Below, one piece after another: positions 36,997-41,520 of a stretch of 64,000 nt of DNA. The notes below the pieces were generated by a model. That model was given only the letters and a program-made list of their open reading frames with translations, had not been told where the DNA came from and did no database searches. Source of the stretch: the human T2T-CHM13v2.0 reference genome, Homo sapiens; the NCBI GenBank assembly GCA_009914755.4, contig CP068257.2:31936001-32000000 (forward strand), given 5' to 3'. Positions within the stretch are counted from its first letter, which is position 1. Each line of letters begins with the position of its first letter. A program made the translations under genes and the position numbers.

Positions 36997-37574
36997 GTAG
37001 CTGGAAGGATTGTTAAGGTGGCAATGTAAAGGAGAATTAAATAAAACCATTCAATAAGCAGAGGATGCCAGGCAGGCCACTTTCTCTTGTTTCAAGTTTT
37101 GCACTCTCAGAGACTCAACATGTTAAGTTAGAGAAATTCTGTAGGACGTCAAGTTTAGCTCTACAACAGGGAAATGATTTGAGAGTTGGTGGTGTAATAG
37201 AGCCTAAATTTCCAAGGACAAGTGACAAGAGCAGCAAGTCAAGCCTGGTGCTTATCCTAAGTGCTCACCACTATTATCTCAATGGATGCGAATGAAATAG
37301 TGTCTAGTTTTCATTTCTACACTACATATGGCATTTTTAGTTAAAAACAATTTTAGCACGTATATATCTTACTTTAGATGTACATTCGTTGACCAGGCTG
37401 GTTGGTTAATGGGCTCAAAATTTGTTTGCAGAAGCCAGTAAACTTTATGTGTGTATGATATACAGTCATCCCTCACGCATCCATGAGGGATTGGTTCCAG
37501 GACCCCCATGAAGACCAAAATCTCCAGATACTCAAGTCCCTTATAGAAAATAGTGCAGCAGCTTGGGAAACAAG

Positions 37575-37775
37575 GCTCTCTACAAAAAAATTAAAAATTA
37601 GCCAGGCATGGTGGCATGTGCCTGTTGCCCCAGCTACTGGGGAGGCTGAGGCAGGAGGATCCCTTGAGCACATGGGTTTGAGGTTACAGTGAGCTGGAAT
37701 GAGCACTGCACTCCAGCCAGGGCAACAGAGCAATACCCTGTCTCAAAAGAAAAAAAAAAAGAAAGAAAAAAAAAA
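37575..37775 (+). mobile_element. Alu right-monomer fragment
   Basis: ttagccaggcatggtggc...tctcaaaag(a)n. Confidence 0.8.
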
Positions 37776-37933
37776 TGGCCTAGTATTTGCATATAACCGA
37801 GGCACATCTCCATTATACATTAAGTCATCTCTATATTACTTATAATACCTAATGCAATGTAAATACTATGTAGATAGTGGTTATGCTATTTTTTTTGTTT
37901 TTTTTATTGTCGTATTATTACTTTTTCAGAGCT

Positions 37934-38225
37934 TTTTTTTTTTTTTTTTGAGACAGGGGCCCCCTCTGTGGCCCAGGCTAGAGTGCAGTGGCATGATCAT
38001 GGCTCACTGCAGCCTCAACCTCTCAGGCTCTAGTGATCCTCAGCCTCCCAAGTAGCTGGGACCACAGCAATTCACCGCCACACCAGGTTAATTTATTTTT
38101 ATTTTTGTATAGACAGGGTCTCCCTATGTTGCCCGGGCTGGTCTCAAACTCCTGAGATGAAGCCATCCTCCTGCCTCAGCCTCCCAAAGTGCTGGGATTA
38201 CAGGCATGAGCCACTGCCCCCAGCC
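37934..38225 (-). mobile_element. Alu
   Basis: Alu antisense consensus. Confidence 0.88.
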
Positions 38226-38557
38226 TCCAAATATTTTTGATCCTTGATTGGTTGAATCCCTGGATGTGGAACCCTCAGATACAGGGGGCTGATCGTATGT
38301 CACTAAGAGAATCAGAAAATGATGTAAAAATCAAAGAAAAAATCTATCTTGCTAATTTAATTGAAATTATAATACTAAGATCAAGATTCTATGTAATTGC
38401 CCGTACTTCTGAATTATTTATGGCCCAGAATGACACAGTTGGAAGGAGATGTCTCTGTTAAATCACAAGCAGCAACTTAGCTTGTATGAACTGAATGAGG
38501 AGGGTTTGCACAAGTGAGGACTACTGTATGATTCAGGACTTTAGAAAATGCAAATTA

Positions 38558-38866
38558 GGGCTGGGTGCGGTGGCTAACGCCTGTAATCCCAGCATTTTGG
38601 GAGGCTGTAGCAGGTGGATCACCTGAGGTCAAGAGTTCGAGACCAGCCTGACCAATATGGTGAAATCCTGCCTCTACTAAAAATACAAAAATTAGGTGGG
38701 CATGGTGGCATGCGCCTATAGTCTCAGCTACTTGGGAGGCTGAGACAGGAGAATTGCTTGAACCTGGGAGGCAGAGGTTGCAGTGAGCTGAGATGGCGCC
38801 ACTTCACTCTAGCCTTGGTGACAGAGCGAGACTCTATCTCAAAAAAAAAAAAAAAGAAAGAAAGAA
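38558..38866 (+). mobile_element. Alu
   Basis: GGGCTGGGTGCGGTGGCTAACGCC... A-rich tail. Confidence 0.88.
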
Positions 38867-38903
38867 AATGCAAATTAGCAAATATAAGTCATTTAAAACA
38901 TTT

Positions 38904-39194
38904 CTTTTTTTTTGAGACGGAGTCTCGCTATGTTGCCCAGGCTGGAGTGCAGTGGCACGACCTCGGCTCACTGCAAGCTCCGCCTCCTGGGTTCATGCCA
39001 TTCTCCTGCCTCAGCCTCCCGAGTAGCTGGGACTACAGGTGCCCGCCACCATGCCTGGTTAATTTTTTGTATTTTTAGTAGAGAAGGGGTTTCACCATGT
39101 TCGCCAGGATGGTCTCAATCTCCTGACCTCGTGATCCGCCCACCTTGGCCTCCCAAAGTGCTGGGATTACAGGCGTGAGCCACCACACCTGGCC
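38904..39194 (-). mobile_element. Alu. It forms an inverted pair with the Alu at 38558.
   Basis: Alu antisense consensus, 40 bp from a sense Alu. Confidence 0.88.
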
Positions 39195-39490
39195 TAAAAA
39201 TATTTTTAAAAGGAAACTAAAGAATATAAATTTACTAATTCACATCCCTGCAAGTTCCCTTCCTACTGCTGTTAATAAAATTCTTACCTGTGTGCAAAGC
39301 ATGTATTTCTGATTCTGGAAAATGTACAGTATTTCATATACACATGTCATGTTTCAACTTGGTCCAAGGATTTGTCAAATAGGTTAAAATTGCCTTCTCA
39401 TCGGGAGAGGTGGTTTGAGAGAATTAAGTTATATACTATAAGCAGAGCAGTCTAGTTTCCAACATGTAAGATTCAAAACTAATAGCTACA

Positions 39491-39800
39491 GCCGGGAGTG
39501 GTGGCCCATGCCTGTAATCCCAGCACTTTGGGAGGCTGAGGCGTGTGGATCACCTGAGGTTAGGCGTTTGAGACCAGCTTGACCAACATGGTGAAACTCC
39601 GTCTCTACTAAAAAATACAAAAAATTAGCCAGGCGTGGTGGCGCATGTCTGTAATCCCAGCTACTCAGGAGGCTGAGACAGGAGAATTGCTTGAACCCAG
39701 GAGTTGGAGGTTGCAGTGAGCCAAGCTCATGCCACTGCACTCCAGCCTGGGCAAGAGTGAGACTCTGTCTCAAAAAAAAAAAAAAAAAAAAAAAAAAAAA
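39491..39800 (+). mobile_element. Alu with a long poly(A) and an 18-bp target-site duplication
   Basis: Target-site duplication tcaaaactaatagctaca at 39473-39490 and 39801-39818. Confidence 0.9.
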
Positions 39801-39945
39801 TCAAAACTAATAGCTACATAGTATTCTAACCTTAACTAATGTTACTTTTGTTAACTGTTACTTTTAATAGCCACATGGTATTCTCCACTGTAGCATCATT
39901 CCATGTTATTCTTAATAATTACAATGTTATTGGATTGGACATTTA

Positions 39946-40247
39946 CTTTTTTTTTTTTTTTTGAGACAGAGTCTCGCTCTGTAGCTAAGCTGGAGTGCAG
40001 TGGCGCGATCTCAGCTCACTGCAACCTTCACTGCCTGGGTTCAAGCAATTCCCCTGCCTCAGCCTCTGGAGTAGCTGGGACTACAGGCGTGTGCCACCAC
40101 ACCCAACTAATTTTTTTTTTTTTGGTATTTTTAATAGAGACGGGGTTTCATCATGTTAGCCAGGATGGTCTCGATTTCCTGACCTCGTGATCCCCCACCT
40201 CGGCCTCCCAAAGTGCTGGGATTACAGGCATGAGCCACTGTGCCAGC
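39946..40247 (-). mobile_element. Alu
   Basis: Alu antisense consensus. Confidence 0.88.
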
Positions 40248-40429
40248 TCATGTACCTTTTTAAAAAATGAAATTAATTAAAAATCCTTTTAGAAAGTTAA
40301 ATCTAATTTTCAAATTTAATAGGAAATATTTAATCAGAAATAACTTTAAACTCATACATTCACTACATGAAGGGGTTTTGAAATCTACTCCTTAAAACTT
40401 AACACATGCAGTATACTAATTACGTAACT

Positions 40430-40597
40430 TTTTTTTTTTTTTTTTTTTTTTGAGATGGAGTCTCACTCTGTCACCAGGCTGGAGTGTAGTAGTGCAATCT
40501 TGGCTCACTGAAACCTCTGCCTCCCAGGTTCAAGCGATTCTTCTGCCTCAGCCTCATGAGTAGCTGGGATTACAGGCATGTGCCACCATGCCCGGCC
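40430..40597 (-). mobile_element. Alu partial (monomer)
   Basis: Poly-T...ggattacaggcatgtgccaccatgcccggcc. Confidence 0.8.
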
Positions 40598-41231
40598 TAC
40601 ATAACTACCTTAAAGCTCCGAATAAAGACTGTCATTGCTCCTGGAGGGAACTGGCCTTTATACATATCACACATATATGACTAGACACATTTAAGAAAAG
40701 TAACGTATGATATTCAGTAGAGAGAAGTGTAAGGCTATGTAAATCTTTCTTCAGACACACACATATGCTCTATCAAGTAATGATAACTTTTTTTTTATCC
40801 AATACATTAAAACTTTTACCAAGTGCTGCTGCCTCTAAGCCAGTCATTTTAGAAATAAAAGGAATTCTTAAGTTGACCCTACTCTAAAGAGGTTTGCACC
40901 TTTCTTTTTGAAATTGTTTGTATATTCCAAACTTTTTATTATTTTTACTCAACTGGAATGATTTGGCTTCAATCACACCAGACTTATCTCTGAATGACTT
41001 TTGTTTCAAAAAGTCAAACCTATCTTCATTTGATAAAGATTTCCTAGCATTGATATTTATAAAACACTCCACAAACTCTTTAATTTAGAAAAGTATTCTG
41101 AAATGTTTCTGTGCAATGGCACCATCATAGGAGTAAGTGTGCAACCTTTCAAGGTGATGTGTGCTTTCCTTAATGTGAGGTTAAAAACAAAATCTTCCAG
41201 GTATCTTAGGGCTCATCTCTGTTCAGAAAGG

Positions 41232-41420
41232 AGAGAGACTGCCTGAGTGTGATTCTTGCTCCGCCACTTGCTGCGTCCTTGAGTCTGTATCAACATCTCT
41301 GTGCTTCTGTTTCTTCACCTGTGAAATGGGGATGATAACAGTACTTACATCTCAAAAGGCTGTTTTAATGTTTAAATGAATACTTGCAAGGCACTTGGAA
41401 TACTGTTTGGAATACTTAAG
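41232..41420 (+). mobile_element. MIR
   Basis: ..ttcttcacctgtgaaatggggatgataacagtacttacatctcaaaaggctgttttaatg.. matches the MIR core. Confidence 0.7.
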
Positions 41421-41520
41421 GAAACTTAACTGCTATTATTATTTCCTATTATCGTAATGAAAGAACTTAGTACAGTACAAAGTTCAAGCCAGAAACTCAA
41501 TCAGTCGATAAAAAGGATAT

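What the first reader, a model, noticed from the sequence alone, without database searches (positions are those of the whole stretch)
36997..41520. AT-AC U12-type (minor spliceosome) intron in CRYZL1
The exon at 41521-41626 has no GT donor. It ends ...AAATATCTTT and is followed by ATATCCTTTT, the canonical AT-AC U12 5' splice site (/ATATCCTTT). The intron's 3' end has the U12 branch-site-like CCACCTTAAC about 16 nt upstream of a terminal AC (..ccttccagctAC|GTATCTTAAAG).

Splicing at AT...AC joins T+GT into a Cys codon and keeps the protein in register (..[21 protein letters not shown]..). The nearby CAG acceptor would break the frame.
Basis: partly seen in the sequence, partly recalled or inferred. 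Interest (0 to 1): 0.55.

Follow-up and report, generated by a model that had tools for sequence, protein, structure and literature searches.

The report
Known AT-AC minor intron in CRYZL1
The flagged stretch is a real AT-AC intron of the human CRYZL1 gene removed by the rare "minor" spliceosome, but it is already listed in minor-intron catalogues and has been shown to be retained when a minor-spliceosome factor is depleted, so it is ordinary.

Summary
On the minus strand, exon 41626-41521 ends ...AAATATCTTT and is followed by ATATCCTTTT. The intron ends ...CACCTTAACAATCCTTCCAGCTAC at 36997, before exon 36996-36951.

The exons in the window encode residues identical to PDB chain 7nd2_C, "Quinone oxidoreductase-like protein 1" (CRYZL1). 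I enumerated every junction that reproduces that protein. The seven other introns each have a GT-AG solution. This intron has exactly one solution, 41521|36996, and it is AT-AC.

Two transcript contigs from another mammal carry the same junction. Three orthologous genomic versions (four contigs) keep ATATCCTTTT, and one spans the whole intron and keeps CACCTTAAC...CCAGCTAC|GTAT.

The intron is already known:
- MIDB (Olthof 2019) lists it for human and mouse.
- de Wolf 2021 lists it as a U12 A-type AT_AC intron with branch site CACCTTAAC. Retention rises from 0.25 to 0.64 after CENATAC depletion (padj 1.5e-9).
- Parada 2014 documents an alternative AT-AG junction at the CAG 4 nt upstream, which shifts the frame.

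Verdict: interpretation supported, already known, low interest. DONSON, the neighbouring gene in the window, also has a catalogued U12 intron.

The parts
41521..41626 (-). CRYZL1 coding exon upstream of the minor intron (106 nt, ends ...AAATATCTTT; phase-1 boundary)
   Evidence: Translation. tblastn block. The upstream GT-AG intron ends at 41627. The peptide is identical to PDB 7nd2_C.
41512..41520 (-). U12-type 5' splice site ATATCCTTT (intron +1 to +9)
   Evidence: Invariant in the window, L003, L005 and L006. Same 12-mer, TTTATATCCTTT, as in MIDB Table S2 for human and mouse.
36997..41520 (-). AT-AC U12-type intron, 4524 nt in this window (published hg38 length 4523)
   Evidence: It is the only junction that reproduces the protein. 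The orthologous cDNA junction matches. Catalogued as a minor intron.
37012..37020 (-). Proximal branch-site motif CACCTTAAC; branch adenosines 37014/37013 lie 17/16 nt from the AC end and 13/12 nt from the alternative AG
   Evidence: Conserved in L005. The mouse branch site TGAACCTTAACA has the same core. de Wolf 2021 gives bp_seq = CACCTTAAC.
37025..37036 (-). Distal branch-site-like motif TTCTCCTTTACA (A at 37027, 30 nt from the 3' end), which is MIDB's pick for the human branch site
   Evidence: Largely conserved in L005 (CTCCTTTACA kept, with a 3-nt gap at its start). Its distance from the 3' end is less favourable than that of the proximal motif.
36997..36998 (-). Terminal AC of the intron (3' splice site of the main, in-frame isoform)
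37001..37002 (-). Alternative AG 3' splice site, 4 nt upstream of the AC (AT-AG junction, shifts the frame)
   Evidence: Parada 2014 supplement: CRYZL1 ATAG junction, class U12_GTAG, length 4519, 10 tissues, ENST00000381540.3. Predicted C-terminal tail. CAGCTAC is conserved in L005.
36951..36996 (-). Downstream 46-nt CRYZL1 exon (GTATCTTAAAG...TTTTCAG), followed by the U2-type donor GTACGC

Best explanation
Window 36997-41520 (minus strand) is the single U12-dependent, A-type (AT-AC) intron of human CRYZL1. It lies between a 106-nt exon and a 46-nt exon near the 3' end of the coding region.

Mechanism, inferred from established knowledge of the minor spliceosome:
- The U11/U12 di-snRNP recognises the donor /ATATCCTTT and the branch site CACCTTAAC together.
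- U6atac then replaces U11 at the donor.
- The 3' splice site is chosen mainly by distance from the branch adenosine. The AC, 16-17 nt downstream, gives the in-frame mRNA ...[13 protein letters not shown]...
- The AG 4 nt closer (12-13 nt) is used in a minority isoform that shifts the frame and gives a different, shorter C-terminus.
- Splicing is relatively inefficient and depends on minor-spliceosome factors such as CENATAC.

Shown here or in the cited papers: the sequence elements, the junction, its conservation, the catalogue entries and the CENATAC response. Inferred: the snRNA pairings, which of the two branch candidates is used, and the distance-based choice between AC and AG.
For: - Sequence elements sit at the stated coordinates.
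- Every other intron in the window has a GT-AG solution. This one has a single solution, and it is AT-AC.
- The encoded protein is identical to PDB 7nd2_C 'Quinone oxidoreductase-like protein 1' across the junction.
- Spliced transcript contigs L001 and L002, from two sequencing runs of another mammal, read ...AAATATCTTT|GTATCTTAAAAG.
- ATATCCTTTT is invariant in orthologous genomic contigs L003/L004, L005 and L006. L005 spans the whole intron and keeps CACCTTAAC and CCAGCTAC|GTAT.
- Olthof 2019 Tables S1 and S2 (the MIDB tables) list the intron for ENST00000381554 and for mouse Cryzl1.
- de Wolf 2021 Dataset EV1, sheet 'U12 A-type': NM_145858.2, AT_AC. The donor and acceptor strings are identical to the window, and bp_seq is CACCTTAAC. 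PSI goes from 0.248 to 0.495 to 0.635 at 0, 24 and 48 h of CENATAC depletion (padj 1.5e-9), with an up-regulated alternative acceptor inside the intron.
- That paper reports that none of 85 major-type AT-AC and related-subtype introns responded to CENATAC depletion.
Against: - The donor and branch motifs are not over-represented in the window on their own, so the case rests on context.
- In the same datasets, ZRSR2-mutant MDS samples (PSI 0.21 to 0.33, padj 0.53) and MVA patient cells (0.21 to 0.40, padj 0.27) changed in the expected direction but not significantly.
- The two catalogues disagree on the human branch site: TTCTCCTTTACA in MIDB, CACCTTAAC in de Wolf. A rough duplex calculation against a U12 sequence recalled from memory does not separate them (-6.4 versus -4.9 kcal/mol).
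- The published intron length is 4523 nt, against 4524 nt here.
Confidence: 0.97

Rival explanations
1. It is a major-spliceosome (U2-type) AT-AC intron, a rare class that shares the terminal dinucleotides but is spliced by U1/U2.
For: AT-AC termini alone do not define U12 dependence. de Wolf 2021 counts 85 major-type AT-AC and related-subtype introns in human.
Against: - The donor is the extended U12 consensus ATATCCTTT, not a U2-type donor.
- A CCTTAAC branch motif lies 16-17 nt from the 3' end.
- The intron responds to CENATAC depletion, whereas none of the 85 major AT-AC and related-subtype introns did.
- It is filed as U12 in two independent catalogues.
Confidence: 0.01
2. The true intron is a conventional GT-AG intron with slightly different boundaries (a cryptic GT inside the upstream exon joined to the CAG or another AG), and the AT-AC reading is an artefact of forcing the frame.
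For: Some GT/AG pairs near the boundaries keep the normal C-terminus. For example, GT at 41542 with the acceptor giving a first exon base at 37000 yields ...[13 protein letters not shown]....
Against: - Those combinations delete or replace residues (VQQGKYLC) that are present in the solved CRYZL1 protein sequence and in the cross-species cDNAs.
- The enumeration against the protein gives one solution only.
- All GT donors downstream of the exon run into a stop after ...YILFID*.
Confidence: 0.01
3. The AT-AG junction (acceptor CAG at 37001) is produced only after A-to-I editing of intron position +1. The edited donor reads as GT, so a U12 GT-AG-like pairing is used and editing acts as a switch between two C-termini (claim of Parada 2014, Table 2).
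For: [quoted passage not shown]
- From established knowledge, the first and last intron bases of U12 introns interact (A with C, G with G), so an I at +1 would favour a G-terminated 3' site.
- Many inverted Alu-like repeats lie in the neighbourhood.
Against: - None of the 25 longest inverted-repeat pairs shown has an arm covering the donor at 41520; the nearest arms end at 40596 and start at 42152.
- The local fold is no better than shuffled sequence, z = 0.39.
- The downstream exon starts GTATC and the intron starts ATATC. A normally spliced AT-AC read with an overhang of 5 nt or less, aligned without a gap, therefore shows exactly an A>G mismatch at +1. blastn did just this with cDNA L001, extending the alignment to 41516.
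- From established knowledge, unedited AT-AG U12 introns are known to be spliceable.
Confidence: 0.08

Closest known systems
CRYZL1 minor intron as catalogued in MIDB (Olthof et al. 2019, PMC6717393) and in de Wolf et al. 2021 (PMC8280824)
   Same: It is the same object. The 5' splice-site 12-mer TTTATATCCTTT is identical. The 25-nt donor and 46-nt acceptor strings are identical, and so are the branch site CACCTTAAC, the AT_AC termini and the transcript (ENST00000381554 / NM_145858.2).
   Different: The published length is 4523 nt (chr21:33591208-33595730, hg38), against 4524 nt in the window. The DONSON minor intron is 450 nt in both sources, so the window probably carries a 1-nt indel inside the intron relative to GRCh37/38. 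This is inference.
A-type (AT-AN) U12 introns dependent on CENATAC (de Wolf 2021)
   Same: AT start, U12 donor and branch site, and strong retention after CENATAC depletion (delta PSI +0.39 at 48 h).
   Different: Nothing distinguishing. It behaves like the average A-type intron, for which the mean delta PSI is 0.36.
U12-like AT-AG non-canonical junctions (Parada et al. 2014, PMC4176328)
   Same: The same donor is joined to the AG 4 nt upstream of the AC. The junction is seen in 10 tissues and is annotated in ENST00000381540.3.
   Different: That junction shifts the frame and is the alternative form, not the junction that encodes the solved CRYZL1 protein.
DONSON U12-type GT-AG intron, in the neighbouring gene in the same window
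   Same: It is a U12-type donor and branch pair catalogued in MIDB.
   Different: It is G-type (GT-AG) and 450 nt long, with donor GCT|GTATCCTTT and branch site ATTTCCTTGATT. It is a different gene.

Membership tests
U12-type (minor spliceosome) intron, AT-AC / A-type subclass | Extended 5' splice-site consensus /ATATCCTT(T) starting at intron +1 | tested here: met
   ATATCCTTT at 41520-41512, at the only junction compatible with the protein.
U12-type (minor spliceosome) intron, AT-AC / A-type subclass | Branch-site motif resembling TCCTTAAC close to the 3' splice site (roughly 10-20 nt; the range is from established knowledge) | tested here: met
   CACCTTAAC at 37020-37012, with branch adenosines 16-17 nt from the AC. 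A second, weaker candidate lies 30 nt away.
U12-type (minor spliceosome) intron, AT-AC / A-type subclass | Terminal dinucleotides AT...AC | tested here: met
U12-type (minor spliceosome) intron, AT-AC / A-type subclass | No long polypyrimidine tract between branch site and 3' splice site | tested here: inconclusive
   Only 15 nt (AATCCTTCCAGCTAC) separate the motif from the junction. That leaves no room for a U2-type tract, but I computed no formal score.
U12-type (minor spliceosome) intron, AT-AC / A-type subclass | Conservation of intron position and of the U12 signals in orthologues | tested here: met
   The donor is invariant in L003/L004, L005 and L006. The branch site and AC are kept in L005. 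The cDNA junction is kept in L001 and L002. Mouse Cryzl1 is listed in MIDB.
U12-type (minor spliceosome) intron, AT-AC / A-type subclass | Splicing depends on minor-spliceosome components | not testable with these tools
   Literature only. Retention PSI goes from 0.25 to 0.64 on CENATAC depletion, padj 1.5e-9. The ZRSR2-mutant and MVA data show the same direction but are not significant.
CRYZL1 (quinone oxidoreductase-like protein 1) gene | The exons encode the CRYZL1 protein | tested here: met
   276 of 276 residues align to PDB 7nd2_C at E = 1.2e-187. The C-terminal 83 residues are shown identical. There is a weak ADH_zinc_N Pfam hit, below the gathering score.

The most novel reading that the evidence does not exclude
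A-to-I editing of the first intron base (A to I at 41520) could act as a switch in a U12 intron. It would move 3' splice-site choice from the AC to the AG 4 nt upstream, and so exchange the C-terminus of CRYZL1, a subunit of the complex solved in PDB 7nd2. Parada 2014 tabulated this editing but did not test it. My evidence does not exclude it. It does offer a simpler artefact explanation: the downstream exon starts GTATC and the intron starts ATATC.
Probability: 0.06. Interest if true: 0.5.

Novelty: already known. Interest (0 to 1): 0.08.

Why it matters
It matters little as a discovery. The intron is in the standard minor-intron catalogues, and its dependence on a minor-spliceosome factor has been measured.

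It is useful as a positive control for the scan: a reader working from sequence alone found a true U12 AT-AC intron with exact boundaries and the better-supported branch site.

Two small points may interest specialists:
- The two published catalogues disagree on the human branch site. Conservation in another mammal and in mouse, together with the distance rule, favours CACCTTAAC.
- The published "editing" of the donor A may be an alignment artefact caused by the resemblance between the start of the intron and the start of the next exon.

Tried and rejected
- **Motif counts.** ATATCCTT, RTATCCTT and CCTTAAC are no more frequent in the window than in shuffles. Motif frequency cannot carry the argument.
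- **Protein database search.** The 50-aa junction peptide returned only six short ORF fragments and no annotated full-length CRYZL1. The fragments were still useful for fetching orthologous contigs.
- **Gene identity from memory.** I first aligned a protein sequence recalled from memory. I then replaced that basis with the PDB sequence match.
- **GT-AG alternatives.** I enumerated those near the boundaries and rejected them.
- **dsRNA support for A-to-I editing at the donor.** None of the 25 longest inverted-repeat pairs shown has an arm covering the donor, and the local fold is no better than shuffles.
- **U12-branch-site duplex energies.** Computed with a U12 sequence recalled from memory, they did not discriminate the two branch candidates.
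- **Cassette exon.** The 82-nt cassette exon in L001 and L002 has no counterpart in the window.
- **Literature searches.** Pairing CRYZL1 with 'U12', 'AT-AC', 'minor intron' or 'minor spliceosome' found only one relevant main-text mention, Parada 2014. The catalogue entries are in supplementary tables.
- **Other motif sites.** The ATATCCTT at 46109 (minus strand) has no exon in front of it.
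Full report
**1. The observation**

Read on the minus strand, window 41626-41521 is a 106-nt open stretch. It translates as [35 protein letters not shown] and leaves one spare T. The other two frames contain stops.

The next bases, from 41520 downward, are ATATCCTTTTTATC. At the other end, the sequence reads TTCTCCTTTACATTGCCACCTTAACAATCCTTCCAGCTAC, with the final C at 36997. It is followed by GTATCTTAAAGGATGTGATGGAGAAGTTATCAACTGGTGTTTTCAG and then GTACGC.

**2. Chance**

The short motifs are not unusual by themselves.
- ATATCCTT occurs 6 times on both strands against 3.2 expected. 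Twelve of 100 shuffles reach 6.
- RTATCCTT occurs 8 times against 5.7 expected.
- CCTTAAC occurs 8 times against 10.7 expected.

The evidence therefore has to come from position and context.

**3. Gene and junction**

A protein sequence that I recalled for human CRYZL1 aligned at full identity in nine exon blocks on the minus strand.

To remove the dependence on memory, I assembled the exon translation and searched it against the sequences of solved structures. All 276 residues align to chain 7nd2_C, "Quinone oxidoreductase-like protein 1", at E = 1.2e-187. The C-terminal 83 residues, including [19 protein letters not shown], are identical residue for residue. Pfam gives only a weak ADH_zinc_N hit below the gathering score. 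This fits a divergent member of the medium-chain dehydrogenase/quinone oxidoreductase fold.

I then enumerated, for each pair of neighbouring exons, every junction position that reproduces the protein. Each of the seven other introns has a GT-AG solution among its few equivalent positions. The intron in question has exactly one solution, 41521|36996, with termini AT-AC.

GT-AG alternatives near the boundaries fail in one of two ways. They either run into a stop (...YILFID*) or remove residues that are present in the solved protein.

**4. Independent transcript and cross-species evidence**

The junction peptide retrieved short ORF fragments from assemblies of other animals.

- Transcripts. Contigs L001 and L002 come from two sequencing runs. 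They align to seven and three exon blocks of the window respectively, and read ...AAATATCTTT|GTATCTTAAAAG at the orthologous junction. Because the bases flanking the junction differ, this cDNA sequence fits no shifted junction.
- Genomic contigs. L003/L004, L005 and L006 all have ATATCCTTTT immediately after the exon. In the alignment, intron positions +1 to +10 are invariant, and conservation collapses after that in the most distant sequence.
- Whole intron. L005 spans the whole, shorter intron. It keeps CTCCTTTACATTGTCACCTTAACAGTCTTTTCCAGCTAC|GTAT, that is, both branch-like motifs, the CAG and the terminal AC.

**5. What is already published**

- **Olthof et al. 2019** (PMC6717393) is the paper behind the Minor Intron Database. 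Table S1 lists chr21:33591208-33595730, ENST00000381554-CRYZL1, 4523 nt, minus strand, together with the mouse Cryzl1 intron. Table S2 marks the gene as minor-intron-containing in "Both" species. It gives the 5' splice site TTTATATCCTTT in both species, the mouse branch site TGAACCTTAACA and the human branch site TTCTCCTTTACA. Table S7 reports use of a cryptic 5' splice site and of a cryptic exon inside this intron in several human tissues.
- **de Wolf et al. 2021** (PMC8280824), Dataset EV1, sheet "U12 A-type", lists the same coordinates for NM_145858.2 as AT_AC. Its donor and acceptor strings are identical to the window, and its branch sequence is CACCTTAAC. Intron retention PSI is 0.248 in controls, 0.495 after 24 h and 0.635 after 48 h of CENATAC depletion (padj 1.5e-9). 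An up-regulated alternative acceptor event is flagged inside the intron. The paper states that 92% of A-type minor introns responded and that none of 85 major-type AT-AC and related-subtype introns did.
- In the same paper's re-analysis of ZRSR2-mutant MDS samples, the change is 0.21 to 0.33 (padj 0.53). In MVA patient cells it is 0.21 to 0.40 (padj 0.27). Both go in the expected direction but are not significant.
- **Parada et al. 2014** (PMC4176328) lists, in a supplementary table, a CRYZL1 junction chr21:34963517-34968036 (hg19, minus strand, length 4519). Its dinucleotides are ATAG and its class is U12_GTAG. It was seen in ten tissues and is annotated in ENST00000381540.3. That is the same donor joined to the CAG 4 nt upstream of the AC.

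So the finding is correct and already known.

**6. How it most likely works**

From established knowledge of the minor spliceosome:
- The U11/U12 di-snRNP binds the donor and the branch site cooperatively.
- U6atac replaces U11 at the donor.
- The 3' site is selected by distance from the branch adenosine rather than by a polypyrimidine tract.

Here the CCTTAAC adenosines lie 16-17 nt from the AC and 12-13 nt from the AG. This explains why both sites can be used. The AC junction gives the full-length protein. The AG junction gives ...GKYLSTYLKGCDGEVINWCFQTSVG*.

The distal motif TTCTCCTTTACA has its A 30 nt from the AC. I favour the proximal motif for three reasons: its distance, its conservation in L005, and the fact that the mouse site has the same CCTTAAC core. 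This remains inference. A crude duplex estimate with a recalled U12 sequence does not decide between the two.

**7. The editing claim**

Parada 2014, Table 2, lists CRYZL1 as "AT-AG > GT-AG", edited by A-to-I. I found no structural support for this. None of the 25 longest inverted-repeat pairs shown, among the Alu-like repeats around the site, has an arm covering the donor. The local RNA fold is no better than shuffled sequence (z = 0.39).

There is also a simple artefact route. The downstream exon begins GTATC and the intron begins ATATC. A normally spliced read with a short overhang, aligned without a gap, therefore shows an A>G mismatch exactly at +1. blastn did precisely this with cDNA L001, extending the exon alignment to 41516. 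I cannot test this without reads, so it stays as a low-probability novel reading.

**8. Small discrepancy**

Both published sources imply 4523 nt for the AT-AC intron and 4519 nt for the AT-AG intron. The window has 4524 and 4520. The neighbouring DONSON minor intron is 450 nt in both. The most likely cause is a 1-nt indel inside the repeat-rich intron between this assembly and GRCh37/38. This is inference.

**9. Verdict**

- Observation: confirmed.
- Interpretation: supported.
- Novelty: none.
- Interest: low.

Noticed in passing
window 27292-27741 (minus strand): The neighbouring gene DONSON has its own U12-type GT-AG intron of 450 nt: AAGCT|GTATCCTTTC ... ATTTCCTTGATTGTCATCTTCAG|GCG. The 12-mers and the length match the MIDB entry ENST00000303071-DONSON. 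The exon peptide hits PDB 8q6o, 'Protein downstream neighbor of son homolog'. So two adjacent genes each carry a catalogued minor intron within 14 kb.
   Followed up: yes
window 35506-35734 (minus-strand gene): The last coding exon of CRYZL1, together with its acceptor, is tandemly duplicated into the 3' UTR (period 116 nt, 2 copies, 80% match). The second copy still translates as RPQSDEHIPVFEAR... and is preceded by its own ...tttctcag. I did not examine whether the second acceptor is ever used.
   Followed up: partly
window 37001-37002 (minus strand): There is an alternative AG 3' splice site 4 nt upstream of the AC. It is documented as an AT-AG U12-like junction in ten tissues and is annotated in ENST00000381540.3 (Parada 2014). 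It shifts the frame to ...GKYLSTYLKGCDGEVINWCFQTSVG*. de Wolf 2021 flags an up-regulated alternative acceptor within the intron after CENATAC depletion.
   Followed up: partly
window 41516-41520 versus 36992-36996 (minus strand): The intron starts ATATC and the next exon starts GTATC. Short-overhang spliced reads aligned without a gap would mimic an A>G change at intron +1. This could explain the A-to-I 'editing' reported for this donor. No dsRNA partner for the donor was found.
   Followed up: partly
window 37012-37036 (minus strand): Published catalogues disagree on the human branch site. MIDB gives TTCTCCTTTACA, 30 nt from the 3' end. de Wolf 2021 gives CACCTTAAC, 16-17 nt from it. Both are conserved in L005, and mouse has the CCTTAAC core.
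   Followed up: partly
window 36997-41520: The intron is 4524 nt here, against 4523 nt in the hg38-based tables. The AT-AG form is 4520 nt against 4519 nt in hg19. The DONSON intron length agrees exactly between sources. This suggests the window comes from an assembly or haplotype with a 1-nt indel in the intron.
   Followed up: no
window 38092-40600 and 42150-43550: There are dense Alu-like inverted repeats inside the minor intron and in the upstream intron: 90 inverted pairs, with arms up to 193 nt at 75-88% complementarity. MIDB Table S7 reports use of a cryptic 5' splice site and a cryptic exon inside this intron in human tissues. I did not locate the cryptic exon.
   Followed up: no
L001 467-548 and L002 (other mammal, transcript contigs): Both cDNA contigs carry an extra 82-nt cassette exon with an in-frame stop, between the exons that correspond to window 43070 and 41626. 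It has no counterpart in the window.
   Followed up: yes
window 46109-46116 (minus strand): A second ATATCCTT lies on the gene strand inside an upstream CRYZL1 intron. It has no open exon in front of it, so it looks like a chance occurrence.
   Followed up: yes
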